Part shown: positions 1 through 39,603 of the stretch, one piece after another
Numbering within the stretch: position 1 is the first letter of the stretch
Layout: each line of letters starts with the position of its first letter
IMG/VR virus record: IMGVR_UViG_2778261067_000006
Span: 1-39,603 of that record
Strand: one strand, 5' to 3'
Origin: a virus
Lineage: Duplodnaviria > Heunggongvirae > Uroviricota > Caudoviricetes
Length of the DNA stretch: 39,603 nt
Position numbers and translations under genes: made by a program
The notes under the pieces: model-generated
What the model was told of the DNA's origin: nothing
What the model saw: the letters and a program-made list of their open reading frames with translations, nothing else
Databases searched by the model: none

Positions 1-1248
1 ATGGCACTGAATATACCATTCAGAAATGTGTACTATCGTTTTGCATCCAGTTACTCATTTCTCTTTTTTATTTCCTGGTCGCTGTGGTGGTCGTTATACG
101 CTATTTGGCTGAAAGGACATCTAGGGTTGACTGGGACGGAATTAGGTACACTTTATTCGGTCAACCAGTTTACCAGCATTCTATTTATGATGGTCTACGG
201 CATCGTCCAGGATAAACTCGGTCTGAAGAAACCGCTTATCTGGTGTATGAGTTTCATCCTGGTCTTGACCGGACCGTTTATGATTTACGTTTATGAACCG
301 TTACTGCAAAGCAATTTTTCTGTAGGTCTAATTTTGGGGGCGCTCTTTTTTGGCTTGGGGTATCTGGCGGGCTGCGGTCTGCTTGATAGCTTCACCGAAA
401 AAATGGCACGAAATTTTCATTTCGAATATGGAACAGCGCGCGCCTGGGGATCTTTTGGCTATGCGATTGGCGCGTTCTTTGCTGGCATATTTTTCAGTAT
501 CAGTCCCCATATCAACTTCTGGTTGGTTTCGCTATTTGGCGCTGTATTTATGATGATCAACATGCGTTTTAAATATCAGGATCAGCAGTGCGTAGCGGCA
601 GATGCGGGAGGGGTAAAAAAAGAGGATTTTATTGCAGTTTTCAAGGATCGAAACTTCTGGATTTTCGTCATATTTATTGTGGGGACGTGGTCTTTCTATA
701 ACATTTTTGATCAACAGCTCTTTCCTGTTTTTTATGCAGGTTTATTCGAATCACACGATGTAGGAACGCGCCTGTATGGTTATCTCAACTCATTCCAGGT
801 TGTACTCGAAGCGCTGTGCATGGCCATTATTCCTTTCTTTGTTAATCGGGTAGGGCCAAAAAATGCATTACTTATCGGTGTTGTGATTATGGCGTTGCGT
901 ATTCTTTCCTGCGCACTGTTCGTTAATCCCTGGATTATTTCATTAGTGAAGCTGTTACATGCCATTGAGGTTCCACTGTGTGTCATTTCCGTCTTCAAAT
1001 ACAGCGTGGCAAACTTTGATAAGCGCCTGTCGTCGACGATCTTTCTGATTGGTTTTCAAATTGCCAGTTCGTTGGGGATTGTGTTGCTTTCAACGCCGAC
1101 TGGAATACTCTTTGACCATGCAGGTTACCAGACGGTTTTCTTCGTAATTTCGGGTATTGTCTGCCTGATGTTGTTATTTGGCATTTTCTTCCTGAGTAAA
1201 AAACGTGAGCAAATGGTGATGGAAACGCCTGTACCTTCTGCAATATAG
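1..1248 (+). CDS. MFS permease of the LacY/HcaT-like (oligosaccharide:H+ symporter) type; host flank
   Basis: Complete 415-aa ORF starting at base 1 with many hydrophobic segments. The N-terminal region (FISWSLWWSLYAIWLKG...) resembles LacY and HcaT as I remember them. No phage context. Confidence 0.7.
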   Translation: MALNIPFRNVYYRFASSYSFLFFISWSLWWSLYAIWLKGHLGLTGTELGTLYSVNQFTSILFMMVYGIVQDKLGLKKPLIWCMSFILVLTGPFMIYVYEPLLQSNFSVGLILGALFFGLGYLAGCGLLDSFTEKMARNFHFEYGTARAWGSFGYAIGAFFAGIFFSISPHINFWLVSLFGAVFMMINMRFKYQDQQCVAADAGGVKKEDFIAVFKDRNFWIFVIFIVGTWSFYNIFDQQLFPVFYAGLFESHDVGTRLYGYLNSFQVVLEALCMAIIPFFVNRVGPKNALLIGVVIMALRILSCALFVNPWIISLVKLLHAIEVPLCVISVFKYSVANFDKRLSSTIFLIGFQIASSLGIVLLSTPTGILFDHAGYQTVFFVISGIVCLMLLFGIFFLSKKREQMVMETPVPSAI

Positions 1249-1683
1249 ACGTAAACTCATTCCGGTTGTTGTCGATAGCTCTATATCCCTCAACCGGAAA
1301 ATAATAATACCAAAATGCTTAGCGCGGCTAATAATCGCCTAATCCAAACGCCTCATTCATGTTCTGGAACAGTCGCTCAAATGTACTCAGGATACGCGGT
1401 TCGCTGATTTCCAGGATATTGTCGTAATTCAGCGACCTGTCCCGTGTATCACGGGCCTGCTAATCCATCAAGGAATGCATTGCGGAGTGAAGTATCGAGT
1501 CAAGCCAGATTTCGCGATCAGGATTCTGTGTGATGATTACATTGCCAGGCCCGGGGCTGTTTAGTCATCGCCGCACAGTGCTGAGATTTCAACCTGTTGC
1601 AGGGAAAATGAGTAGATTTAGGGCAAGTGTGCTGCCAAACCCAACTTTTACGCGGGGAAGGTAGATTTCGTTGGAAGGATAAA

Positions 1684-1698
1684 TGGTGTCCCCTGCAG
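1684..1698 (-). other. 3'-terminal tRNA fragment (CTGCAGGGGACACCA on the minus strand); putative attR core
   Basis: The minus strand reads CTGCAGGGGACACCA, which matches the acceptor 3' strand plus discriminator and CCA of enterobacterial tRNA-Arg (argW-like) as I recall it. No upstream tRNA body is present, so this is a fragment. Confidence 0.45.
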
Positions 1699-1771
1699 AC
1701 ATCTACTTGAGGCGGCAGGGGATTGATTGGAATGGTGTTTTTTAGATGTGAAAAATATTTTACCCGCTATT

Positions 1772-1972
1772 TTACCCATTGGCGCGGCTTAAGAGCTTAT
1801 TTTTGAATTCACAATGGTCACGATATAACCATCTTGCTCGCCCGTGGATAACTTTGGCTTTTGGCAGGTCGCCGGACTTAATCCGGTCATAGATGAAGGT
1901 TTTACCGAAGCCAGTATCGGCCATGATGAATTTCAAATCAACCAGTGAATCAGGCTGTAGTTCGTGTTGCAT
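1772..1972 (-). CDS. AlpA-family helix-turn-helix protein (excisionase/regulator-like)
   Basis: 66-aa ORF with the pattern ...FIMADTGFGKTFIYDRIKSGDLP...RARWLYRD..., typical of AlpA/Xis-type small DNA-binding proteins. Lies next to the att-like fragments. Confidence 0.65.
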   Translation of the reverse strand: MQHELQPDSLVDLKFIMADTGFGKTFIYDRIKSGDLPKAKVIHGRARWLYRDHCEFKNKLLSRANG

Positions 1973-1990
1973 GAGTGCTATCTCCGAATA

Positions 1991-2005
1991 GGGAATCGAA
2001 CCTGC
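1991..2005 (-). other. tRNA T-arm-like fragment (GCAGGTTCGATTCC on the minus strand)
   Basis: 14-nt match to the T-stem/T-loop of the same tRNA-Arg-like sequence; the match breaks immediately after, so it is a fragment, not a gene. Confidence 0.35.
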
Positions 2006-2013
2006 AAATCAGG

Positions 2014-2039
2014 TAATAAAAAACCGCCATCAGGCGGTT
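2014..2039 (-). terminator. Rho-independent terminator at the end of the leftward early operon
   Basis: Minus strand reads AACCGCC-TGAT-GGCGGTT followed by a T-run: perfect 7-bp stem with a tetraloop. Confidence 0.6.
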
Positions 2040-2197
2040 TGGTGTTCTTTCAGTTCTTCAATTCGAATATTGGTTACGTCTGCATGTGCTATCTGCGCCC
2101 ATATCATCCAGTGGTTATAGCAGTCGTTGATGTCCTCTGCTTCGATAACCCTGTCGAATGGTTCTCCATTCCATTCACCTGTGACTCGGAAGTGCAT
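2033..2197 (-). CDS. Small hypothetical protein (55 aa), last gene of the leftward operon
   Basis: ATG preceded by GGAGATGATAA; stop overlaps the terminator stem. Below the ORF-track cutoff; hand-translated. Confidence 0.3.
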
Positions 2198-2269
2198 TTA
2201 TCATCTCCATAAAACAAAACTCGCCGTAGCGAGTTCAGATAAAAGAAATCCCCGCGAGTGCGAGGATTG

Positions 2270-2554
2270 TTATTCATTGCTGATATTCACCTTTATCGCG
2301 AACACCTTTACCAGTTTATCACCGAAGTGCGGATGTGTGATTGTCTTGATTTCATATCCGTCATACGGAATATCAATTCTGCGGCTGGAATCGTCGCGCT
2401 TCGGATATCCCTTTGTGATAATCAGGCGGTCATACTCCCGGAACATAATTCGCTTATTCCAGTAGTCATTACACAGGCGATACTCTTCCGTTTTCTCTCC
2501 GCGAATCATGGCATCGAAGTATTCACCTTTGACGGCAAGTTGCAGGTTAGCCAC
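2270..2554 (-). CDS. Hypothetical phage protein, possibly ASCH/PUA-like (DUF3850-like)
   Basis: 94-aa ORF whose start overlaps the upstream gene's end. The motif ...KGEYFDAMIRGEKTEEYR... resembles DUF3850/ASCH proteins from memory. Confidence 0.45.
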   Translation of the reverse strand: MANLQLAVKGEYFDAMIRGEKTEEYRLCNDYWNKRIMFREYDRLIITKGYPKRDDSSRRIDIPYDGYEIKTITHPHFGDKLVKVFAIKVNISNE

Positions 2555-3224
2555 GGTTAACCTCCTGCGGCGGTTCTGGTAGCGGCATCCAGAACAAGGC
2601 GTTCCCTAACCAGGATAAAGTGCCGTCGCTCAACTCCACGTATTCCCCTTGCACCTGTCCTGCCATATACTCACCGTGCTTTGAATAAATTAAAATCCAA
2701 TCATCTTGAGCGGGCATTCGCTCACTACAGCTTATCCAACCATCCGGAGTTACCTGAGAATTGCCATTTACCAAGTCAGCTCGAACATATAGCGTGTCAT
2801 CATGGTGCTGATTGTGGCTGCACCACGTTAATTCGCTTAACTCGCCATCTTCTGGCCATACTCCAGCTGTTTGCAGCCAGATATGGGCTGGCGCATCCTG
2901 GCAAGGTGTATTAACTGGAAACTTGTAAGTTTGGCTTACAGGTTGGCCTCCCTGAAGCATGGCGGCGCGGTGACACCAGATAATCCAGCCAAGCGCCATA
3001 TCCCATGCCATGTATTCTCTATCGCCATTTTTCGCCCTGCGGCGATCTACAGATTCCCCGAAACGCTTCTCCATAAATAATTCATAGGCTGCTCGTTCAT
3101 CCGATACTGCTGCCAGTGATGCCAGTGCAATTCGTGCCAGTTCCATTTGTTCGCCACGGGTAAGCCCGTTTCCAAGCGGATTTTTAATGAATAATTCGAT
3201 ACGTTCTTTGGTAATAGAATTCAT
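2547..3224 (-). CDS. Phage accessory protein with a C-terminal DUF551-like domain
   Basis: 225-aa ORF; the C-terminal W/P/G-rich segment (...DGWISCSERMPAQDDWILIY...WMPLPEPP) resembles DUF551 of lambdoid early regions. Confidence 0.5.
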   Translation of the reverse strand: MNSITKERIELFIKNPLGNGLTRGEQMELARIALASLAAVSDERAAYELFMEKRFGESVDRRRAKNGDREYMAWDMALGWIIWCHRAAMLQGGQPVSQTYKFPVNTPCQDAPAHIWLQTAGVWPEDGELSELTWCSHNQHHDDTLYVRADLVNGNSQVTPDGWISCSERMPAQDDWILIYSKHGEYMAGQVQGEYVELSDGTLSWLGNALFWMPLPEPPQEVNRG

Positions 3225-17571: not shown

Positions 17572-17775
17572 ATGTACCGTATGGACAAAATCAGAGAATG
17601 GTTCAGTTACAGCTTCGGAGGACTGACTGCGATGGGTGGCATTCTCTCCCTGAATGACTGGGCTGTCATCATTGGTATTCTTTGTACTGTCGGCACATTT
17701 GGCATCAACTGGTACTACAAGCGCAAAGAGCGCGAGGACAGATTGAATGGCAATGTCACCGGCACTACGAAATAG
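17572..17775 (+). CDS. Holin (phage-21 S-type, dual start MYRMDK...)
   Basis: 67 aa with two TM segments and a charged C-terminus; hairpin CCCCTCAATGAAGGGG lies immediately upstream of the start. Confidence 0.75.
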
Positions 17776-18250
17776 CGTAATAGCGGCGATAAGTGGCGGG
17801 GCTATTGCTATAGCATCTGTGTTAATCACTGGACCAAGTGGTAACGATGGTCTGGAAGGTGTCAGCTACATACCATACAAAGATATTGTTGGTGTATGGA
17901 CTGTATGTCACGGACACACCGGAAAAGACATCATGCTCGGTAAAACGTATACCGAAGCAGAATGCAAAGCCCTCCTGAATAAAGACCTTGCCACGGTCGC
18001 CAGACAAATTAACCCGTACATCAAGGTCGATATACCGGAAACAACGCGCGGCGCTCTTTATTCGTTCGTCTATAACGTGGGCGCAGGCAATTTCAGAACA
18101 TCGACGCTTCTTCGCAAAATCAACCAGGGCGATATCAAAGGCGCATGTGATCAGCTACGTCGCTGGACATATGCTGGCGGTAAGCAATGGAAAGGGCTGA
18201 TGACTCGCCGTGAGATTGAGCGTGAAGTCTGTTTGTGGGGGCAACAATGA
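17747..18250 (+). CDS. SAR endolysin (T4-lysozyme fold with N-terminal signal-anchor-release domain)
   Basis: Hydrophobic Gly/Ala-rich N-terminus (…[19 protein letters not shown]…) followed by lysozyme motifs (…[11 protein letters not shown]…); overlaps the holin end. Confidence 0.85.
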
Positions 18251-18684
18251 GCAGAGTAACCGCGATTATCTCCGCTCTGGTTATCTGCATCATCGTCTGC
18301 CTGTTATGGGCTGTTAATCATTACCGTGATAACGCCATCGCCTACAAAGAACAGCGCGATAAGGCCGCATCCATCATCGCTGACATGCAGAAGCGTCAAC
18401 GTGATGTAGCAGAACTCGACGCCAGATACACAAAGGAGCTTGCTGATGCTAACGCGACTATCGAAAGTCTCCGTGCTGATGTTTCTGCTGGGCGTAAGCG
18501 CCTGCAAGTCGCCGCCACCTGTGCAAAGTCAACGACCGGAGCCAGCAGCATGGGCGATGGAGAAAGCCCAAGACTTACAGCAGATGCTGAACTCAATTAT
18601 TACCGTCTCAGAAGTGGAATCGACAGGATAACCGCGCAGGTTAACTACCTGCAGGAGTACATCAGGACTCAGTGCCTGAAATAA
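18247..18684 (+). CDS. Rz: Rz (i-spanin)
   Basis: N-terminal TM segment followed by a coiled coil; ATGA overlap with endolysin stop. Confidence 0.75.
18440..18631 (+). CDS. Rz1: Rz1 (o-spanin lipoprotein) embedded in the +1 frame of Rz
   Basis: Lipobox ...LLGVSAC followed by a proline-rich mature region; fully nested in Rz. Confidence 0.6.
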
Positions 18685-29882: not shown

Positions 29883-30349
29883 TGGAAATAAAGCTCATCG
29901 ATAATCCGGTGAAGCTTGCAGAATTCCTCAACAACCCGGCAAACACGGGAAATATCGTAGACAGTGGAGATAAATACTACATCAAGCCTGATGCGGTATA
30001 TCTCGGCATCTACGAAGGATTAGTGCTGGCTGGCGTTCATGAAGTGCGTAACTTCTGGCATAGCGTTGTTGAATGCCATGCGGTGTATGACCCCGGATTC
30101 CGTGGCGAATATGCACTACAAGGGCATCGATTATTCTGCAAATGGCTTCTCGAAAACTCACCATTCCTTAACAGCATCACCATGGTTCCTGACACCACCA
30201 AATACGGACGGGCAATTATCCGTTTGCTTGGCGCTACCCGTGTTGGTCACCTTGATGATGCGTACATGAGTAACGGAAAACCGGTAGGAATCACCCTCTA
30301 TCAATTACCTCGTTCGAAATATGAGGAGCTATTAAATGTTAGTACTTAG
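29882..30349 (+). CDS. Virion assembly protein in the gp14 position
   Basis: Assigned by synteny between tail needle and ejection proteins. Confidence 0.5.
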   Translation: MEIKLIDNPVKLAEFLNNPANTGNIVDSGDKYYIKPDAVYLGIYEGLVLAGVHEVRNFWHSVVECHAVYDPGFRGEYALQGHRLFCKWLLENSPFLNSITMVPDTTKYGRAIIRLLGATRVGHLDDAYMSNGKPVGITLYQLPRSKYEELLNVST

Positions 30350-31016
30350 CGAAAGCTTCAAGAATAAATTGCTTCCCATGAATGGGTATATGAAAGGCGG
30401 CAGCGACTCCGGATCTAAAGCCCAGGCACGCGCAACTGAAAAGGGCATCGAACTGCAGCGTGAAATGTGGCAGACGAACATGCAAAACCTTGCACCGTTC
30501 ACGCCACTCGCTCAGCAGTACGTATCACAGTTGCAGAATCTTTCCTCTCTTCAGGGGCAAGGTCAGGCTCTTAACCAGTATTACAACTCTCAGCAGTACA
30601 AAGACCTTGCAGGTCAGGCGCGCTATCAGAGTCTGGCAGCAGCAGAAGCAACTGGTGGATTAGGCTCTACAGCAACCGGAAACCAGTTGGCAGCAATCGC
30701 GCCTACACTCGGTCAAAACTGGCTGTCAGGTCAGATGAACAACTACAACAATCTGGCAAATATCGGCCTTGGTGCTCTTACAGGTCAGGCAAACGCCGGA
30801 CAAAACTACGCTAACAACGTCAGCCAATTGTATCAACAGCAGGCGGCAGCATCTGCGGCTAATGCTAACCGACCATCAGGACTGCAATCAGCCTTGGGAG
30901 GTGCCATGAGCGGTGCGGCATCAGGGGCGATGATTGGCTCTGTGGTGCCAGGAATAGGTACGGCTGTTGGCGCTATTGGTGGCGGCATTATCGGTGGTCT
31001 TGGATCATTGTTTTAA
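30336..31016 (+). CDS. Ejection (DNA transfer) protein, gp7 position
   Basis: 226 aa, Gln/Ala/Gly-rich with a Gly-rich hydrophobic C-terminus; synteny and size match P22 gp7. Confidence 0.6.
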   Translation: MLVLSESFKNKLLPMNGYMKGGSDSGSKAQARATEKGIELQREMWQTNMQNLAPFTPLAQQYVSQLQNLSSLQGQGQALNQYYNSQQYKDLAGQARYQSLAAAEATGGLGSTATGNQLAAIAPTLGQNWLSGQMNNYNNLANIGLGALTGQANAGQNYANNVSQLYQQQAAASAANANRPSGLQSALGGAMSGAASGAMIGSVVPGIGTAVGAIGGGIIGGLGSLF

Positions 31017-31025
31017 GGTGGGAAT

Positions 31026-32438
31026 ATGGCTACTTGGCAACAAGGAATCAACTCAGGCGGTTTTCTTGCTGGTATCGGTGGGCAAAACTCAAATGCGCCA
31101 AAGGCAAGTGATGTAAGTGAGGCGTTGGCCTATATTCGCCAGAACAACGAAATGGAGCGTTCAGGTCGCAATAACATCGGCCTTCAGGCGTTGCAGGGAC
31201 TTGGTAGTGTCGCTCAAACATATCAAGCTGCAAAGCAACAGGAAGCGGATGCTGCATTCCAAAAAGAATATGCGGCAGCCATCCAGTCAGGTGATCGGCA
31301 GCAGGTGCGAGATCTGATGACCAAATATCCTGGTCAATTAGAGAAGATTCAGTCTGGTATGAAGTGGGCAGACGAAGACCAGCGCAATTCTATCGGCACC
31401 TTAGCGGCTGGCGCACGCCTTGCGGCATCGTCTCCAGAAGCAATGCAATCATGGCTGCAAAACAACGCCAAGGAACTGACTCGCGTCGGTGTTGACCCTA
31501 ACAGCGTTGCTCAGATGTATCAGCAGAACCCTTCAGGATTTGGTGAGTTTGTTGATCACCTTGGGATGGCTGCGCTTGGTCCGATTGATTACTTCAATGT
31601 TCAGGACAAGATGGCTGGTCGTGAGATTGATCGCGGAAAACTTGCAGAGACAATCCGCAGCAATCAGGCTGGAGAGGCGCTTCAGGCGAGAGGCCAAAAC
31701 CTTTCCTATCAGTCAGCAATGACTGGGCACAATATCGCAGCACAACGCTTGGCTCTGGATCAGCAAGAGTTCGGGTTTAAGATGCAGCAAGCGCAGGAAA
31801 AGGCACAGCAGTTGATTAGCGAAGCACCTAAGCTGTCAGTAAACATGGAAAAAGGCATCGAGACAGCTGTAAACAATGCCACAGCATCATCAAACTCAGC
31901 CAATTCCATGAGTGCGCTTGCTCAACAGTTCAGAGCAGAAAAACCAACGACAGGTTTGTTCGGTAACGCACAGAACATGTTCGCAAAACTTACCGGAAGC
32001 GATACGACATTGCGTGATTTGCGCATTCGCCAAAATGCCCTTGTTAACAGTCAGGTTCTTAAATTCCTACCTCCCGGCCCCGCAACGGATAAAGACGTTG
32101 AGATCGTTCGTCAGGGTGCACCAACTGACATGGATAACCCTGAGACGGTCGCAAGATGGCTTGATGCTATGGCAAACCTTGAGCGACGAAACGCGCAGTT
32201 TAATGAGTTTAAAGCCGAGTGGATGAGCGCGAATGGCAACCCTGGACAATCGCGTAATGGCGGTCAGATATTGGGGTTGGATGTTAAAAAAGGTGAATCA
32301 TTGGGGAGTGCCGTTAAGCGGTATATGTCAATGAATACTGACGCAGCGCCAGCACAAGATTCGACACCTTCAGGTGAACCACGGAATCAGGTTGGATCAT
32401 ATACCTCAAAATCAGGCATTCAATTTACGGTGGAATGA
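31026..32438 (+). CDS. Ejection (DNA transfer) protein, gp20 position
   Basis: 470 aa versus about 471 for P22 gp20; synteny. Confidence 0.6.
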
Positions 32439-34282
32439 TGAAAGTAACTGCAAACGGTAAGACATTTACCTTTCCTGATGGTACGAGCACCGAAGATATT
32501 GGCACCGCCATTGATGAGTATTTTGCTGGTCAGGCTGTTCAGCAACAAACAGTTAATCAGGCCAATAATGCACCAACACGGGAAGAACCATCATTGATGC
32601 AACAAGCTGGCGATTGGCTCACTGGTGGTCAAAGTGCAGGGCAAATTGCAGAACAAGCTGGTCGTGGTCTGGTAAACATACCATTTGACGTATTGCAGGG
32701 CGGCGCAAGTCTGATTAATGCAATCAGTCAGGGGCTTGGTGGCCCCAAGGTTTTGGATGATGTTTATCGTCCAGTAGACAGACCGACAGACTCCTACGCA
32801 CAAGCCGGTGAAACAATTGGTGGGTATTTAGTTCCAGGAGTTGGAACGGCAGGAAGCATGGCTATTGGATCACTGGCAGAGGCCGCAAATCAGAAAGGCG
32901 ATTTCGCACAAAATGCAGCTAAAAATGCCGGAGTTAACCTTGCCGCTCAGGGTGTTCTTTCCGCAGCAGCAAAGGGAATAGGGCGTGGAATAACGGCTAT
33001 AAAAGGTGATATTGCGCCAGAAGTGGCGAAGAAAATTGCCACATCAGAATCGATGGGCGTGACACCAATGACATCTGATGTTATCCCGCCGAAAAATGCT
33101 TTCACTCGTAGCCTTACTCAGGATGCCGAGGGGGCTTTGCTCGGGACAGGCTCAAAGCGAGCGGAGCAATATGCAACGCGTAGTAAGCTGGTAAGCAATT
33201 ATTTTGACCGTTTTGGTGAGTACAACCCTGATGATGTGGTGAAATCTCTGACCACCACGTTAAGGGGGCGGAAGGATGCCGCTGGCGCTGTTATCAATGA
33301 CGTCACCAATAAAATGGGTAATGCCGCAGTTGATACCACAAATACCATGAATGCTCTGAATACAGCGATCGCAAGACAGGAACGGCTTGGGACGTCTGCC
33401 AATCAAAGCCTGCTTACATCCTTGCGTAACCTACGTGAAGAATTAGCAAACCCTGCAACTGATTTGGATGTTACGTTTGATCTCTTGCGTCAGCACAGAA
33501 CAGCATTTAGATCTAATGTTCAGGGAGATGCTATGGTCTTCCCCAACCAGGCAAAAGCAGCTACCAATATGGTAGAGAATGCAATGTCAAAAGACCTTCG
33601 TAACGCAGTTGCAAAAAACCTCGGTGCGTCAGACGCAGCAAAATACCTTAAAGCAAATTCCGATTATGCAAACGTTTATAATAAGGTGCTTAATAAAAAC
33701 ATTGCCAACAAGCTCAACAAGGCAAGCAGTGAAGCCAGTCCTGAACTTATAAATACCGTTGTATTAAGCAGAAAACCATCTGACGTGAAACGAATCTGGA
33801 GCGCACTGGATGATAAGGGGAAAGATGCTATGCGTGCAGCTTACGTCAGCAAAATAGCGGAAAAGGCCGGGGACTCTCCAGCCAAGTTCATCACTGAAGT
33901 TAATAAGCTGAAATCTCAGTCAGGCGGTGAAATTTACAACACTATTTTTTCTGGAAAGCACATGAAAGAGCTTGATGCTCTTCATGAAGTTCTACAGCAA
34001 ACAGCAAGGTCAGACACCGCAAATGTAGTAACTCAGACGGGGCAATCGCAAGCCAACAGGATAAGGACGATTGGCGCAACTGCGACTCTTGGCGTATCAA
34101 TGGGGCTTGAGGCTGGTTTCGGTGCAATGATGCGCTTGTATGAGTCAAAAGCAGCAAGGAATGCTCTCTTACGTTTGGCAAACACCAAAGCAGGAACACC
34201 AGCCTATGAAAGAGCGCTAAATAATGCTGCAAATGCGATACGCCCTATACTTTCAAGCCAAATTACAGCAGAACAGCAATAA
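32435..34282 (+). CDS. Ejection (DNA transfer) protein, gp16 position
   Basis: 615 aa versus about 609 for P22 gp16; synteny. Confidence 0.65.
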
Positions 34283-34295
34283 AAATAAGATATAA

Positions 34296-34781
34296 CTATC
34301 TGATATTGCTGCTACTGTTACATGTTACCGTGTTTCCAAATCCTGAATTGCAGTTTGTATATGTGTCAACGCGTGTTGGGTAAGGTTGAGTTATAACAGG
34401 CTGGCGCGCTTTTTGCTCGATCGCTTGCATTGTGTTTACAGCCTGATAATTCAATAAAGCCTGCTGGAATGCTTGGCTTTGTGCTATTTGTTGTGCTTGT
34501 TCTTGGCTTTGTAATTGAACATAAAGATTCTGAAGTTCAAGTCTTGCCTGTGTGTCACTTATCTTGCCTTCATCGACACCTTGCCCGAGCATCTTCGCAG
34601 CAAGGACATAAAGCTTAGGTGTTGGTGCTGATGCCATGCGTGAGTCGTTCTTCACACTGGCATCAAGGCAATTAGCCATATCGCTAAGCTTTTGATAGCG
34701 TTGTTCGCAACTTGCTTGATAGTCACTTACTTTTGCGCATCCAACCAGCAGAAGCGGGATAATTAACAGTGATTTTTTCAT
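34296..34781 (-). CDS. Lipoprotein (signal peptidase II signal MKKSLLIIPLLLVGC), Gln-rich, several Cys
   Basis: Start at the ATG with AAGGAG SD; lipobox LLVGC; Ala at +2 suggests outer-membrane sorting; convergent with gp16 and co-oriented with mnt. Confidence 0.6.
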   Translation of the reverse strand: MKKSLLIIPLLLVGCAKVSDYQASCEQRYQKLSDMANCLDASVKNDSRMASAPTPKLYVLAAKMLGQGVDEGKISDTQARLELQNLYVQLQSQEQAQQIAQSQAFQQALLNYQAVNTMQAIEQKARQPVITQPYPTRVDTYTNCNSGFGNTVTCNSSSNIR

Positions 34782-34851
34782 ATGGTTAACTCTCCTTAGT
34801 TTTTCACAGGATATCATGAAGGCAATGCCATTTTAGCCGGAAACTAGATTT

Positions 34852-35121
34852 CTATGTTTCCTTTTTATTATTGCTATACATGGTCTTAAGCGTATCAAAG
34901 ACAATTTTCTTAACCATATCAGATTGTTGTTCTGCCATACGCTCTGCATCGTCAATATAAACTGATGCAGAGCTTTGTTTAGCCAATGATTCTTCAATCG
35001 CTGCAATTATCTCTGAGTTCAGCGACCTGTTATTCATCTTCGCACGCTGCTTAATTTTCGCGTGGAGTTCATGCGGAAGTCTCAAGTGAAACTGCGCCTC
35101 GTCGTATTTGCTGTACATCAT
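34852..35121 (-). CDS. mnt: Mnt-like ribbon-helix-helix repressor (Arc/MetJ family)
   Basis: ...NNRSLNSEIIAAIEESL... and ...IDDAERMAEQQSDMVKKIVFDTLKTMY... parallel P22 Mnt (...GRSMNSELLQIVQDAL...NDAERLADEQSELVKKMVFDTLKDLY...). Confidence 0.75.
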   Translation of the reverse strand: MMYSKYDEAQFHLRLPHELHAKIKQRAKMNNRSLNSEIIAAIEESLAKQSSASVYIDDAERMAEQQSDMVKKIVFDTLKTMYSNNKKET

Positions 35122-35239
35122 CAATGCCTCACCAAATGGGTGGAATGGCATCGTAACCTACTGGATAAATACTCAATAGTACCATTTCGGTATGTAACCA
35201 CATCATGGTTGCATCATAACATTCGTCTGGAGCAATGAA

Positions 35240-37069
35240 ATGTCAGATATCACCGCAAATGTTGTGGTAAGCATGCCTTCGCAACTCTTCACTATGGCGC
35301 GTTCTTTTAAAGCCGTGGCTAATGGCAAAATTTATATCGGAAAAATTGACACTGACCCGGTAAATCCTGAAAACCAGATTCAGGTCTATGTTGAGAACGA
35401 AGACGGTTCTCACGTTCCTGTTGCACAGCCAATCATCATTAACGCTGGCGGGTATCCTGTATATAACGGACAGATTGCCAAATTCGTAACTGTGCAAGGC
35501 CATTCTATGGCTGTTTATGATGCGTACGGTGCGCAGCAGTTTTATTTTCCGAATGTGCTGAAGTATGACCCTGATCAGCTAAGAGTTGATTTATATGGCA
35601 TTTACGGTTCTACGCTTATAGGATGGGCAACATATGAAGATATAAGAAATTACTCAGGTAATGGCGAGATAATAAATTGCAGAGGTAGAAGTTATAAAAA
35701 TGATAATGGATGTGGTTTTTTTGTTGTTGATAAAATAGACACATCAGCACAAGATAATGACGGAACAATATTAGTTGATCTCCTTGGGAGAAGATGGAAA
35801 AGACAATTTGCAGGAGATATAAACGTTTCATGGTTTCTTGATGGAAACGGTCCTGATGTAAATTCATCAATTGGGTTTCAGAATTGCATTAATGCCTACC
35901 CGCACTCAAGGATTTTAATTCCTTTCGCACCAGATGGTTATTATTTTTTTAATGAGGTTGTTGAGCCGCAGAGTTCATCTTTTCAATTGATTTGTTGCGA
36001 CGGAATGCAAGTGAATAATCAACAGTTGATTTACGTTAATTTCAACGGGGCAGCATTCAAGTGTGAGTCAACAAATACAACTTTTACCAAGTATCAGGGA
36101 ATTCGTTTTGAGACGGACAAGGAGTCTTATCCTTTAGCACAAGCTATACGTAATGATGGGTTTTTAGTGCATGGGGAAATTAAAAATATAACTGTAAAAA
36201 ATTTCTCTAGCAAGGCAATACAGATAAACGGATGTAATTGTTGCAATTATGAGCAGGTTCTTATCCAGTTCAATGATGATTTTGGTCTTTTCACTCTTGC
36301 AGGTGCGGCTAATACATTCGACAGAATAGTCGGTGATAATAATAACGGTGGAGTTATGTACTCAGTCGGAGCATCTAACGCATATAGAAACTTATACTCC
36401 GAGGATTGCTGCAAAACCAACGTTAGCGCTTCTGACACAAATCCAGAGTTTTATTTCGGAGGTGATTCCCATACTGTTACAAATATCTCCATAAACTCCT
36501 ACCCCGGGAACGCCACACCTCCGGTTAAACTAGATTTCTGCCGCAATATGACAATGATTGGCGCATCCAATAAATCATCAACAGCGCCTTCATATTCATA
36601 TGAGATAGAGTTGACTAATCAGGATTCAAGTTTAACGCTTATCAACAGTTCCGATATACGCATTAAACCAGGCGTTGATTCTAAAAACACGATAAAAATA
36701 GATGCTGGTTACGCATCTTTATCTCCATCAATAGTTGTTGGTGGATATGGAAGAGATATAATAAAAAATACACCAATATCAACAGCGTGCTTCTCATCCG
36801 ATGGCACAATATTAGAGGCAAATGGTATAGCAAGGGTTGAATACAACACCACCGGAACTTATTCTATATATATGGCAGAACAGGTTAATAATGCTGAAGG
36901 AATTAGGGTTATAGGTAGTGCTGACGCGGAAGGATATGATTATTTTGTAGTTGTTTCTGAAAAAGGAAGCTTTAGAACAAATTCATCAGTAAGAATTGAA
37001 ACCAGAGATACTGCTGGAAACCTAGTTTCACCAAAACATGTTTCTGTGGCTATTTATGGATCTGTATGA
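35240..37069 (+). CDS. Tailspike: conserved P22-type N-terminal head-binding domain with a divergent receptor-binding/enzymatic domain
   Basis: First ~115 aa ([59 protein letters not shown]...VLKYDPDQ) nearly match P22 gp9; the remainder is unrelated and visibly AT-rich. Confidence 0.85.
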
Positions 37070-37170: not shown

Positions 37171-38232
37171 TTATCTTAGTATTATCCTCGCTATTTTAGC
37201 ACATGGTGCTTCAATCAACATATGTATGACCCATGCTATCGTTATAAACAAAATTAGAAGAAGCGACATTTTTGGAAATCCATGCATATTGCTTATATAT
37301 GGGATGCTGTACATGTATTTATTCAAGGCGTTATAAACAACCAAATGCGACAGATAAAGAGAATACGATATATTGGCAAAAAACATTAAAATTCTGTAAG
37401 TTCTAATGCCGTTTGTTATCTCAATTGATAAAAATGATAGAATAAGAATAAAACACCCAATCCCAACTTTATCAATTCCATGCCCATATTCAGGTGGCGA
37501 TATTATCATTATTATTGATAGCAGCAGCGCTAATATTTGCAAAGGAGAAATGAAGTTTCTTTTTATTGTGATGTTATTTTTTATAAACAAAAAAACATTA
37601 CACATAAGCATACCGATAACAAACTCAATCATCATCTGCGATGATGTTATCTTTACTATCGATTCTAGAGGCCCGTTTATGTTAATTGATGCGTAAGCAG
37701 AATAATCGCCGCTGTTATTGAAAATGAAGTTATTTATCACAAATAAAGTCAGTATAAAAACCGAACAAACAAATGCTCTGAATTTATGAGATATTAACAT
37801 TGATATTGTAAATATAAAATAAAACACAACCTCATAAGATAGGGTCCACGCTGCTGACACCATAGAATATCCATAGAATGGAGCTATAGATGAATAATCA
37901 TATTGTATGAAAAAAAGCGATTTATATAAATCTAAGGTGGTGTAGCTATTTATTGATAAAGCATAACTTATGAGAATGGCAATCAAATAAATCGGATATA
38001 TTCTAAAAAATCTCTTTATTGCAAATGATTTTATTGATGAGTCATTCTGTGTTGAAAAAACTATTACAAAGCCGCTTATCATAAAAAAAAGATCTACGCC
38101 AAAGTATCCATAGTCAAAAAGAATATCTCCTAAATTTTCCTGAGCATATGCTCCTGCAATTATCGATCTCAGATGAAAAAGAACTACAAAAAGAGCCGCA
38201 ACACCTCTAAGATAATGTATTGAAAGTACCAT
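37171..38232 (-). CDS. Acyltransferase-3 family integral membrane protein (Oac/OafA-like O-antigen acetyltransferase)
   Basis: 353 aa, about ten hydrophobic helices, N-terminal IHYLRGVAALFVVLFH motif; strongly AT-rich; sits between tailspike and integrase as oac does in Sf6. Confidence 0.75.
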   Translation of the reverse strand: MVLSIHYLRGVAALFVVLFHLRSIIAGAYAQENLGDILFDYGYFGVDLFFMISGFVIVFSTQNDSSIKSFAIKRFFRIYPIYLIAILISYALSINSYTTLDLYKSLFFIQYDYSSIAPFYGYSMVSAAWTLSYEVVFYFIFTISMLISHKFRAFVCSVFILTLFVINNFIFNNSGDYSAYASININGPLESIVKITSSQMMIEFVIGMLMCNVFLFIKNNITIKRNFISPLQILALLLSIIMIISPPEYGHGIDKVGIGCFILILSFLSIEITNGIRTYRILMFFANISYSLYLSHLVVYNALNKYMYSIPYISNMHGFPKMSLLLILFITIAWVIHMLIEAPCAKIARIILR

Positions 38233-38445: not shown

Positions 38446-39603
38446 TCACTCTACCTTCCCATCAATCCAGTCCGCCCACCACTGCATCATCTCCCTGCGC
38501 TTATCGAAATACTGCGCATGGTTGTAAATACCGCGCACAGATCCGCCGTTGGCATGTGCCAGTTGCACTTCAATAGCATCAGCAGGCCATTCGTGCTCGT
38601 TCATAATCGTGCTGAATTCATGCCTGAATCCGTGACCGCTTTCCAGCCCTTCATAGCCAATTTGTTTGATCACAAGCAATACCGCGTTCTCGCAGATTGG
38701 CTTCTTCTTATCGTTGCGCCCGGCAAAAACAAACTCTGAGACTGGTTTGGTGATTGAGCTTAGCGTAGTGAGAAGTTCAACCACCTTGTCTGACATCGGG
38801 ACCACATGAATTTTGCGTCCCTTCATCACACTGGCGTCGATGGTGATAATCCTGTTTTCAAAATCGACGTTCTTCCATAGCATGGAACGAAGCTCTTTTG
38901 TTCTTAGGGCTGTGTAGCGTAAAACTTTGGTCGCAATGAGCGATACGATACTTCCTGAAAATGTTGCCAGTGCTTTGTTGAATGCAGGGATCTGGTCTGC
39001 TGGAAGAAACGGGAAGTTCTTCTTGCGGTATCCCTTCATGGCGTCAGCAAGGTCAGGTGCTGGGTTATATTTAGCCCTTCCGGTGACAATAGCGTAACGG
39101 AAAACCTCGCCGCATCTTCTGCGTGCTTTGTTGGCTCGCTCCATTGCACCGCGATCTTCAAATCTGCGGATTACTTCCAGCAGTTGCATCGGCTCAATAT
39201 CCTGAATTTCAAGGCCGCCGATGATAGGTAAAATGTCGTCATCAAACATTTTTGCAAGTTCAGTTGCATAGCCTACTGACCAGACTTGCTTCTTGTGCTC
39301 GTACCATTCCTTGTAAATCGCACTAAAGGAATTGTTGTTAGACGAAGCCTTTTTCGCTTTTACCGGATCGATGCCAACCGAGATGTCTTTCCTCGCGGTC
39401 CATGCCTTATCCCTTGCCTCCTGCAAAGTCATAAGCGGATATTTTCCTACGGTCAGTATTTTTTCCTTACCGTCAATCTTGTAGCGAAGCTGCCATACCT
39501 TTTTCCCGGATACAGGGACATAAAGGTACAGGCCATTACCATCGAGAAGGCGATATGGTTTTTCTTTCGGCTTTGCTGCTTCAATCTGCTTAACGGTGAG
39601 CAT
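38446..39603 (-). CDS. int: Tyrosine integrase (P22/Sf6/CPS-53 IntS-like)
   Basis: 385 aa with catalytic-region motifs (…HGFRHEF…, …RGIYNHAQY); N-terminus MLTVKQIEAAKPKEKPYRLLDGNGLYLYV as in IntS-type integrases; start codon is the last base of the window. Confidence 0.9.
   Translation of the reverse strand: MLTVKQIEAAKPKEKPYRLLDGNGLYLYVPVSGKKVWQLRYKIDGKEKILTVGKYPLMTLQEARDKAWTARKDISVGIDPVKAKKASSNNNSFSAIYKEWYEHKKQVWSVGYATELAKMFDDDILPIIGGLEIQDIEPMQLLEVIRRFEDRGAMERANKARRRCGEVFRYAIVTGRAKYNPAPDLADAMKGYRKKNFPFLPADQIPAFNKALATFSGSIVSLIATKVLRYTALRTKELRSMLWKNVDFENRIITIDASVMKGRKIHVVPMSDKVVELLTTLSSITKPVSEFVFAGRNDKKKPICENAVLLVIKQIGYEGLESGHGFRHEFSTIMNEHEWPADAIEVQLAHANGGSVRGIYNHAQYFDKRREMMQWWADWIDGKVE

What the first reader, a model, noticed from the sequence alone, without database searches (positions are those of the whole stretch)
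34296..34852. Outer-membrane-type lipoprotein in the sieA slot beside mnt
Between the last ejection-protein gene and mnt, on the opposite strand to the virion genes, is a 161-aa lipoprotein with a classical lipobox (LLVGC), Ala at +2, a Gln-rich coiled segment and several cysteines. In P22 this slot holds sieA, which blocks DNA entry. Phage-encoded envelope lipoproteins in other phages (Llp of T5, Cor of phi80/N15) exclude superinfecting phage by masking receptors. This is a good candidate for an exclusion or lysogenic-conversion lipoprotein aimed at the injection step.
Basis: partly seen in the sequence, partly recalled or inferred. Interest (0 to 1): 0.6.

Follow-up and report, generated by a model that had tools for sequence, protein, structure and literature searches.

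The report
Prophage lipoprotein replacing sieA gene
A P22-like prophage of E. coli carries a well-conserved, lysogen-expressed outer-membrane lipoprotein gene of unknown function exactly where phage P22 has its exclusion gene sieA, which makes it a good but untested candidate for a new way of keeping rival phages out.

Summary
Window 34296-34781 (- strand) encodes a 161-aa protein with a textbook lipobox (LLVGC, Cys15), Ala at +2, four more conserved cysteines and a Gln-rich helix. It lies between the gene-16-type ejection gene and mnt.

It is a real gene. It matches phrog_6067 ("unknown function") at E 4e-110, occurs in 186 of 5426 complete E. coli genomes, and has a median dN/dS of 0.05.

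It is unrelated to SieA, Cor, Bor or TraT, and its predicted structure (pLDDT 89) matches no solved or viral structure. The model shows a small helical bundle, a 50-residue helix and a disulfide-stapled beta-hairpin.

In some prophages about 600 bp upstream of the gene are ~98% identical to P22's orf59a-to-sieA region, up to the Shine-Dalgarno. The ORF is therefore a precise swap for sieA. The same 29-nt leader precedes at least 10 unrelated small, mostly envelope-targeted ORFs in other P22-like contigs.

Published RNA-seq of the 97%-identical Gally gene in E. coli LF82 shows it transcribed in the lysogen and induced in macrophages while the virion genes are silent.

An exclusion function is plausible but untested. 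A host-fitness role is a serious rival, because distant homologues sit in ordinary chromosomal contexts.

The parts
34296..34781 (-). Lipoprotein CDS, 161 aa plus stop (phrog_6067 family)
   Evidence: ORF list and sequence. The start is fixed by the conserved SD and ATG. PHROG match at E 4e-110. dN/dS 0.05.
34737..34781 (-). Signal peptide and lipobox (residues 1-15, MKKSLLIIPLLLVGC). Cys15 is the predicted lipidated residue; +2 is Ala, +3 is Lys.
   Evidence: Read directly. 99 of 119 family members meet the strict lipobox rule, and none of those 99 has Asp at +2. C15 is invariant in close homologues.
34497..34733 (-). Conserved N-terminal helical domain (residues ~17-95) with the C25/C38 pair. 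This is the part shared with the wider family.
   Evidence: AF2 model: helices 18-28, 32-45, 47-50, 53-70 and the start of 76-125, pLDDT 94-98. The profile search found 229 representatives, most matching positions 1-100. C25 and C38 are invariant in 119 sequences.
34407..34496 (-). Gln-rich extension of the long helix (residues ~96-125)
   Evidence: AF2 predicts a single helix 76-125. Residues 90-125 are 33% Gln, with no strong heptad register. Length and sequence vary in distant members.
34305..34367 (-). C-terminal beta-hairpin (residues 139-159) with C144 and C154 facing each other. Family motif: T-x-C-x8-9-C with a central G.
   Evidence: AF2 strands 139-146 and 152-159. C144 and C154 are conserved in at least 90% of sequences. 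The Cys-Cys spacing is 8-9 residues in 74 of the 84 lipobox-bearing members with a scorable C-terminal Cys pair.
34792..34820 (-). 29-nt sieA-type leader with the Shine-Dalgarno (SD at 34792-34797 on the + strand)
   Evidence: It aligns with the P22 sieA leader and with L047. The pattern TTCATGRTATCCTGNNNAAAACTAAGGAG occurs in at least 119 viral contigs, in front of different ORFs.
34852..35151 (-). mnt-like repressor gene, 70 nt upstream on the same strand. This is the longest ORF; the real start is possibly Met11/12 at 35121/35118. It is the probable source of transcription into the lipoprotein gene in this arrangement.
   Evidence: Pfam Arc (1e-14) and Repressor_Mnt (1.6e-12). The window lacks the extended -10 element seen upstream of the leader in P22-type loci (reading). 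No convincing promoter or terminator lies between the two genes.
32435..34282 (+). Gene-16-type ejection protein gene, convergent with the lipoprotein gene (context)
   Evidence: Position after the P22_gp7 and Inj_translocase genes. 75% identical to P22 gp16 by tblastn in related loci.
35240..37069 (+). Tailspike gene with the P22 head-binding domain (context; right boundary of the 'ant moron')
   Evidence: Pfam Head_binding at 8e-67.

Best explanation
The gene encodes a small envelope protein made by the prophage while it is dormant.

Step 1, shown by sequence rules only: it is exported, lipidated on Cys15 and sorted by Lol to the inner leaflet of the outer membrane. It then folds in the periplasm with two disulfides (C25-C38 and C144-C154).

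Step 2, predicted: a compact helical bundle sits directly under the outer membrane. A helix of about 75 A projects from it into the periplasm and carries a polar, disulfide-stapled hairpin at its tip.

Step 3, shown for a 97% homologue and inferred from the shared sieA leader or the mnt operon: it is transcribed in the lysogen while the virion genes are silent.

Step 4, inferred: it is an alternative cassette to sieA and serves the same end from the outer-membrane side. It lets P22-like phages bind O-antigen but aborts DNA delivery.

I favour binding, from the periplasmic face, to a conserved host envelope component that the needle and ejection proteins need in order to cross the outer membrane and periplasm. 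This is the logic of Llp and Cor. I favour it over recognition of the ejection proteins themselves, because the lipoprotein stays 97-99% identical while the neighbouring gp16 and gp20 fall into several very different types.

Likelihoods: real, exported, prophage-expressed lipoprotein about 0.9; anti-phage exclusion of some kind about 0.5; the host-component mechanism about 0.3.
For: Lipobox, +2 Ala and family-wide absence of Asp at +2. Four conserved Cys. AF2 model with pLDDT 89.

Purifying selection: dN/dS 0.05 over 56 alleles.

The slot is the same as P22 sieA. The ORF replaces sieA precisely behind an orf59a-to-SD region that is ~98% identical. No P22-type SieA is found in the 83 lipoprotein-bearing P22-like loci.

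The same 29-nt leader drives SieA and at least 10 other small ORFs, almost all with a signal peptide or a transmembrane helix.

RNA-seq of LF82 prophage Gally (PMC9928086, S1/S4 tables): GALLYPH_13 is the second most expressed Gally gene in LB after the C2 repressor (70 against a median of 15.6). Its log2 signal is 10.3 in macrophages, against about 4 for the adjacent gene 16.

The lipoprotein is 97-99% identical next to gp16 types that are 99, ~70, ~42 and ~34% identical to the window's.

Established knowledge: SieA blocks DNA injection (PMC10883804). T5 Llp, an outer-membrane lipoprotein, blocks the FhuA receptor (Decker et al. 1994, as cited in PMC11990801). That Cor does the same, and that these proteins act from the periplasmic face, rests on my own knowledge.
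Against: There is no functional test of any family member. The gene has no PADLOC hit and no homology to any known exclusion protein.

Strong sequence conservation is unusual for a protein in an arms race.

Distant relatives lie in ordinary chromosomal neighbourhoods (uvrC/UDG/EarP; dsbB...minCDE) and some have a plain signal peptide instead of a lipobox. This suggests a general periplasmic function that a phage borrowed.

The authors of the LF82 study did not score it as a moron in LB: 4.5-fold against their 5-fold cut-off.

In LF82 the neighbouring genes, including the tailspike, are induced together with it in macrophages. The signal may therefore be regional rather than specific.

Sharing a slot with sieA is guilt by association.
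Confidence: 0.45

Rival explanations
1. It is a host-fitness or virulence moron. The lipoprotein changes envelope properties (stress tolerance, serum or macrophage survival, envelope integrity) for the benefit of the lysogen, as lambda Bor does, and has nothing to do with incoming phages.
For: In E. coli LF82 its transcript rises from log2 ~6 in LB to ~8 in the B1/B6 (bacteria-only) samples and 10.3 inside macrophages at 1 h.

The wider family includes genes in normal chromosomal contexts in other proteobacteria, and forms that are soluble in the periplasm.

Very strong purifying selection fits a conserved host partner.

The gene is common in pathogenic lineages such as O26:H11.
Against: No sequence match to Bor, TraT or any Pfam family.

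It occupies exactly the cassette position of a proven exclusion gene and shares its leader.

Deleting mnt in Gally did not change macrophage survival (PMC9928086), although the lipoprotein gene itself was not deleted.
Confidence: 0.3
2. It causes exclusion by acting directly on the incoming phage proteins. The helix-hairpin probe binds the needle or the gp7/gp20/gp16 conduit as it assembles in the periplasm. This would be an outer-membrane counterpart of the proposed SieA-ejection-protein interaction.
For: It shares the slot and leader with sieA, whose escape mutations map to gp16 and gp20 (PMC10883804).

The predicted ~75 A helix could reach the zone where the conduit forms.

SieA also acts on very divergent ejection proteins, so a conserved excluder facing variable targets has a precedent.
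Against: The lipoprotein is nearly invariant beside at least four gp16 types and several gp20 types. No co-variation is visible.

Relatives exist in genomes without any P22-like context.
Confidence: 0.15
3. It is a lytic-cycle protein, such as a spanin-like lysis component, a lysis regulator or a virion or assembly factor, rather than a prophage-expressed function.
For: It is an outer-membrane lipoprotein with a helical periplasmic part, superficially like spanin components. It lies next to virion genes.
Against: The window has its own lysozyme and Rz genes at 17747-18684.

The gene is on the opposite strand to the late operon.

In LF82 it is transcribed while the holin, lysin, Rz and head genes are at background.

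It is absent from most P22-like phages: only 5 of 50,697 phage records carry it. It therefore cannot be essential for lysis or assembly.
Confidence: 0.05

Closest known systems
SieA of phage P22 (phrog_7745; superinfection exclusion, inner membrane)
   Same: Same genomic slot: convergent with gene 16, downstream of mnt/orf59a. It also has the same leader and Shine-Dalgarno, and in some prophages an upstream region that is ~98% identical. Size is similar (161 vs 164 aa). Both are envelope proteins expected to be made in the lysogen.
   Different: There is no sequence similarity. SieA is a polytopic inner-membrane protein with a cytoplasmic FxRYPxEAxxFNK motif (PMC10883804). This protein has only a cleavable lipoprotein signal and is predicted to be outer-membrane anchored and periplasmic. 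SieA's function has been demonstrated; this protein's has not.
Cor (phi80/N15/HK022; phrog_1119) and Llp (T5), outer-membrane lipoproteins that inactivate FhuA
   Same: The kind of molecule is the same: a small phage-encoded lipoprotein with an outer-membrane sorting signal and disulfide-forming cysteines. Both are made to protect the infected or lysogenic cell. This is the mechanistic model I favour.
   Different: It is not homologous. The only Cor match is the signal peptide (residues 1-31, E 0.033), and the viral structure library gives no hit. It is about twice as large and has a helix-plus-hairpin architecture. P22-like phages do not use FhuA, and the target, if any, is unknown.
Bor of lambda (prophage outer-membrane lipoprotein, serum resistance)
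   Same: Both are prophage-expressed outer-membrane lipoproteins carried as morons. In the LF82 data set a Bor gene on another prophage is also induced in cell-culture medium.
   Different: No Pfam match to the Bor or TraT families. The slot and the predicted fold are different.
The 'ant moron' of P22-like phages (Villafane et al. 2008, PMC2629481)
   Same: The window's interval between genes 16 and 9 is one more version of this known, rapidly changing moron. It is reduced here to mnt plus one gene of unknown function, an arrangement the paper describes for ST64T-type phages.
   Different: The paper does not characterise this gene. Two points are additions made here: that the sieA position is swapped ORF-for-ORF behind a conserved 29-nt leader, and that nearly all alternatives are envelope proteins.

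Membership tests
Bacterial lipoprotein (Lgt/LspA substrate) | A positively charged N-terminus, a hydrophobic stretch, and a lipobox [LVI][ASTVI][GAS]C with the Cys within the first ~35 residues | tested here: met
   MKK-SLLIIPLL-LVGC15 fits the PROSITE-type rule, as do 99 of 119 family members. C15 is invariant in close homologues.
Bacterial lipoprotein (Lgt/LspA substrate) | Actual lipidation and signal peptidase II cleavage | not testable with these tools
   This needs palmitate labelling, globomycin sensitivity and a C15A mutant.
Outer-membrane (Lol-sorted) lipoprotein of Enterobacterales | No Asp at +2 (the inner-membrane retention signal) | tested here: met
   +2 is Ala and +3 is Lys in the window protein. 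In the family +2 is A, T, S, V, Q, G or M, never D. The rule itself is established knowledge. Localisation was not measured.
phrog_6067 (phage protein family, unknown function) | Full-length match to the family profile | tested here: met
   E 4.4e-110 over 161/161 positions. All 50 members of alignment A3 match it.
SieA family (phrog_7745) | Sequence similarity to SieA types A, B or C; several transmembrane helices; the FxRYPxEAxxFNK motif | tested here: not met
   BLASTP finds no alignment at E<=100 with P22 SieA. The PHROG scan does not list phrog_7745. There is no hydrophobic segment beyond the signal peptide, and the motif is absent (read directly). Types B and C were not compared directly.
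SieA system (functional) | Genomic position between genes 16 and 9, behind the sieA leader | tested here: met
Cor / Llp-type exclusion lipoproteins | Homology to Cor (phrog_1119) or Llp | tested here: not met
   The only match is the signal peptide (residues 1-31, E 0.033). No BFVD structural match has E<0.2.
Cor / Llp-type exclusion lipoproteins | Blocks infection by binding the phage's outer-membrane receptor | not testable with these tools
   This needs plating, adsorption and DNA-entry assays, and identification of the partner.
Spanin (Rz1-type o-spanin) | A lipoprotein gene embedded in or adjacent to an Rz gene in the lysis cassette, expressed late | tested here: not met
   The lysozyme and Rz genes are at 17747-18684, 15 kb away. 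The homologue is expressed in the lysogen when the lysis genes are silent.
Bor / TraT outer-membrane lipoproteins | Match to the Pfam Bor or TraT families | tested here: not met
   The Pfam scan at E<=1 returns only a sub-threshold DUF2802 hit.
Known anti-phage defence systems (PADLOC-DB v2) | Match to any defence-protein model | tested here: not met
   0 families at E<=1.

The most novel reading that the evidence does not exclude
The lipoprotein founds a new class of superinfection-exclusion protein. Anchored in the outer membrane, it stops DNA delivery by P22-like podophages in the periplasm, using a fold not seen before (helical bundle, 75 A helix, disulfide hairpin).

On this reading, the sieA position is a dedicated 'plug-in' site where a conserved 29-nt leader drives at least ten unrelated envelope proteins. 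Each could be a distinct, uncharacterised way of blocking phage entry.
Probability: 0.3. Interest if true: 0.65.

Novelty: new variant of a known kind. Interest (0 to 1): 0.5.

Why it matters
How podophages get their DNA across the Gram-negative envelope is still poorly understood, and SieA is one of the few handles on that step.

A second, unrelated protein sits in the same expression slot but in the other membrane. It would give an independent probe of the ejection-protein conduit, or of the unknown secondary receptor of P22- and HK620-type phages.

The gene is in about 3% of complete E. coli genomes, including O26:H11 EHEC and the Crohn's-associated strain LF82, where it is switched on inside macrophages. 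It could therefore also matter for phage-therapy host range or for pathogen fitness.

The list of other ORFs behind the same leader is a ready-made set of candidates for new envelope-level defences.

Tried and rejected
1. Inhibitor of a lytic-transglycosylase domain in the neighbouring ejection protein. VSe13's gp16 is annotated that way, but the window's gp16 has no Pfam domain at all. The lipoprotein also sits beside at least four unrelated gp16 types. Dropped.

2. Spanin or lysis role. Rejected.

5. Lpp-like trimeric coiled coil. No convincing heptad register.

6. Searching genomes with the broad alignment A3 failed for lack of a conserved stretch. The narrower A4 found only two genome loci, so the split between phage and chromosomal contexts in the wider family is poorly sampled.

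7. A promoter scan between mnt and the gene found nothing convincing.

8. Literature. No paper in the held library characterises this protein. Casjens and Grose 2016 was not available.

Full report
**What is there.** The window is an integrated P22-like (Lederbergvirus-type) prophage of E. coli.
- A host MFS transporter gene lies at 1-1248 and is followed by a torI-type region. The integrase is at the far end, 38446-39603.
- The late genes end with P22_gp7 (30336-31016), the gp20-type Inj_translocase (31026-32438) and a gene-16-type ORF (32435-34282).
- Thirteen bases after the gene-16 stop, on the opposite strand, an ORF ends at 34296. Its longest form starts at 34817 (173 aa).
- The ATG at 34781 is preceded by TAAGGAG. 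This SD and ATG are conserved in phages Gally and VSe13, while the upstream ATG is not conserved in frame. Database homologues are 157-161 aa and start MKK.
- Seventy bases upstream on the same strand lies an Arc/Mnt-family gene (34852-35151). Beyond it, on the other strand, is the tailspike gene (35240-37069, Head_binding domain).

**The protein.**
- MKKSLLIIPLLLVGC-AK meets the standard lipobox rule. The +2 residue is Ala. In the wider family +2 is never Asp. By the established Lol sorting rule this points to the outer membrane.
- The mature protein has four cysteines (C25, C38, C144, C154) that are invariant or nearly so in 119 relatives.
- With a shallow alignment AlphaFold gave a poor model (pLDDT 63). 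With 119 diverse sequences it gave pLDDT 89.
- The good model has short helices at 18-28, 32-45, 47-50 and 53-70, packed with the start of a single 50-residue helix (76-125). A beta-hairpin (139-146 and 152-159) follows, in which C144 and C154 face each other.
- C25 and C38 lie on adjacent antiparallel helices, so two disulfides are likely (inference).
- Residues 90-125 are one-third glutamine but show no convincing heptad pattern.
- There is no Pfam, NCBIfam or PADLOC match. The only family hit is phrog_6067, "unknown function" (E 4e-110). The weak hit to the Cor family covers only the signal peptide.

**It is a real, constrained gene.**
- It occurs in 5 of 50,697 phage records: Gally, vB_EcoP-720R6 and VSe13 at 95-97% identity, and Proteus phage Brookers and one other at 55%. 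Gally, VSe13 and Brookers, the three records inspected, are Lederbergvirus and carry it in the same slot.
- It is also in 186 of 5426 complete E. coli genomes, including O26:H11 strains, and in 89 protein clusters; every cluster that carries an organism name is from Enterobacterales.
- Among 82 viral-contig copies there are 56 DNA alleles but only 30 protein variants. The median pairwise dN/dS is 0.05, with dS up to 0.71.

**The sieA slot.** In the annotated P22 genome the order is 16 (+), sieA (-), sieA promoter, mnt terminator, orf59a (-), mnt (-), arc, ant, 9. The lipoprotein occupies the sieA position. Three results make this more than synteny.
- None of the 83 P22-like loci that carry the lipoprotein has a P22-type SieA. 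About 17 of them have P22's orf59a (98% identical) between mnt and the lipoprotein gene.
- In such a locus (L047), the ~600 bp from orf59a to the Shine-Dalgarno are ~98% identical to P22. Identity ends at the start codon. The ORF has been exchanged precisely, and the sieA promoter and leader were kept.
- The window keeps only the last ~29 nt of that leader (34792-34820) and has mnt directly upstream. Here the gene is probably read from the mnt promoter (inference; no promoter or terminator was found in between).

**A cassette site.**
The ORF immediately behind it differs between contigs:

| ORF behind the leader | Loci |
|---|---|
| The lipoprotein | 33 |
| 129-aa secreted protein | 24 |
| SieA | 10 |
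| Two families of 107-109-aa proteins with an N-terminal transmembrane helix and a coiled coil | about 27 |
| Several smaller membrane proteins and one cytoplasmic protein | the rest |

- Only SieA has a known function. Many of the other cassettes share a short 3' motif, CCATCCATGGC.
- That the 16-9 interval (the "ant moron") is in rapid flux was already reported (PMC2629481).
- The ORF-for-ORF exchange behind a fixed leader, and the envelope bias of the alternatives, are what I add here.

**Expression.** Phage Gally is a prophage of E. coli LF82, and its GALLYPH_13 is 97% identical to the window protein. The following figures come from the published RNA-seq tables (PMC9928086).
- It is the second most expressed Gally gene in overnight LB after the C2 repressor: 70 normalised counts against a prophage median of 15.6. 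That is 4.5-fold, just under the authors' 5-fold moron cut-off.
- Its log2 signal is about 8 in the B1/B6 samples and 10.3 inside macrophages at 1 h. The adjacent gene 16 stays near 4.
- For macrophages at 6 h against LB, log2FC is 2.55 with q = 5e-27.
- The gene is therefore transcribed from the prophage while virion and lysis genes are silent. The caveat is that its neighbours (an opposite-strand ORF, mnt, the tailspike) rise together with it.

**The wider family.**
- A profile search of 1.8 billion representatives finds 229 relatives. Most are 125-140-aa lipoproteins with the same plan: CE...C bundle, variable linker and terminal Cys hairpin.
- Their contexts are mixed. One is in a prophage-like Burkholderiales contig, between a terminase/polyvalent-protein region and an MmeI-type restriction gene.
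- Others lie among ordinary chromosomal genes: uvrC/UDG/EarP in one case, and dsbB...minCDE in Pectobacterium in another.
- A few have signal-peptidase-I type leaders instead of a lipobox.
- The fold is therefore a general periplasmic module and not a phage invention.

**Interpretation.**
- Export, outer-membrane sorting and prophage expression are well supported.
- The function is inferred. Position, the shared leader with sieA, the company of other envelope cassettes and lysogen expression make superinfection exclusion the leading idea (about 0.5).
- The protein is almost invariant beside at least four very different gp16 types. I therefore favour a conserved host envelope partner, in the manner of Llp or Cor acting from the periplasmic face, over direct recognition of ejection proteins.
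- The main rival is a host-fitness role (about 0.3). It is supported by macrophage induction, by the chromosomal relatives and by the strong conservation.
- A lytic or structural role is very unlikely.

**Verdict.**
Its functional reading is reasonable but unproven.
- This is an uncharacterised, non-homologous variant of a known kind of element (a prophage envelope moron or exclusion factor). It is of moderate interest and directly testable with the assays already set up for SieA.

Noticed in passing
window 34792-34820 (- strand); loci L094-L172: The 29-nt sieA leader/SD is conserved in at least 119 P22-like viral contigs. It precedes at least 10 unrelated small ORFs, nearly all with a signal peptide or a transmembrane helix (phrog_2651, 5962, 8100, 7294, 21338, 10450, 19844 and others). 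Only SieA among them has a known function.
   Followed up: partly
loci L094-L172, immediately 3' of the cassette stop codons: Many of the non-lipoprotein cassettes are followed by a shared motif, CCATCCATGGC or a close variant. This could be a recombination boundary or part of a terminator. The lipoprotein cassettes lack it and run straight into three different gene-16 3' ends.
   Followed up: no
window 35152-35239 and 34852-35151: The window's mnt has no arc or ant partner and lies only 88 nt from the tailspike start codon, on the opposite strand. What Mnt represses here is unclear. It may act on read-through into the tailspike gene, as discussed for P22 in PMC2629481.
   Followed up: no
L001 3447-3866 (Gally GALLYPH_14; absent from the window): A 139-aa ORF lies on the opposite strand between mnt and the lipoprotein gene in Gally-type prophages. 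It has no Pfam or PADLOC match, and it is the most strongly induced Gally gene after the repressor in macrophages (log2 ~11).
   Followed up: partly
window 37171-38232 (- strand): An Acyl_transf_3 gene at about 30% GC, against 45-50% for the rest of the prophage, lies between the tailspike and integrase genes. It is probably an O-antigen acetyltransferase for serotype conversion, which would be a second envelope-level exclusion function in this prophage.
   Followed up: partly
window 1-2600 and 38446-39603: The prophage ends look KplE1-like. A host oligosaccharide MFS transporter and a torI-type excisionase region are at the left end, and the integrase is at the opposite end. No tRNA gene is present in the window.
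   Followed up: partly
L093 9438-10411 (Pectobacterium peruviense); L003 1513-1806 (Proteus phage Brookers): A chromosomal family member in Pectobacterium sits next to a DNA polymerase III theta (HolE-like) gene. Phage Brookers, which carries a 55% homologue, also has a HolE-like gene near its tailspike. This may be a remnant of a shared mobile module.
   Followed up: no
L089 145-5370 and 9735-13214: In a Burkholderiales contig a distant family member lies between a 1741-aa polyvalent protein (LPD1, ART-PolyVal, LPD38) with a small terminase gene and an MmeI-type restriction-modification gene. This is a defence-island-like neighbourhood.
   Followed up: partly
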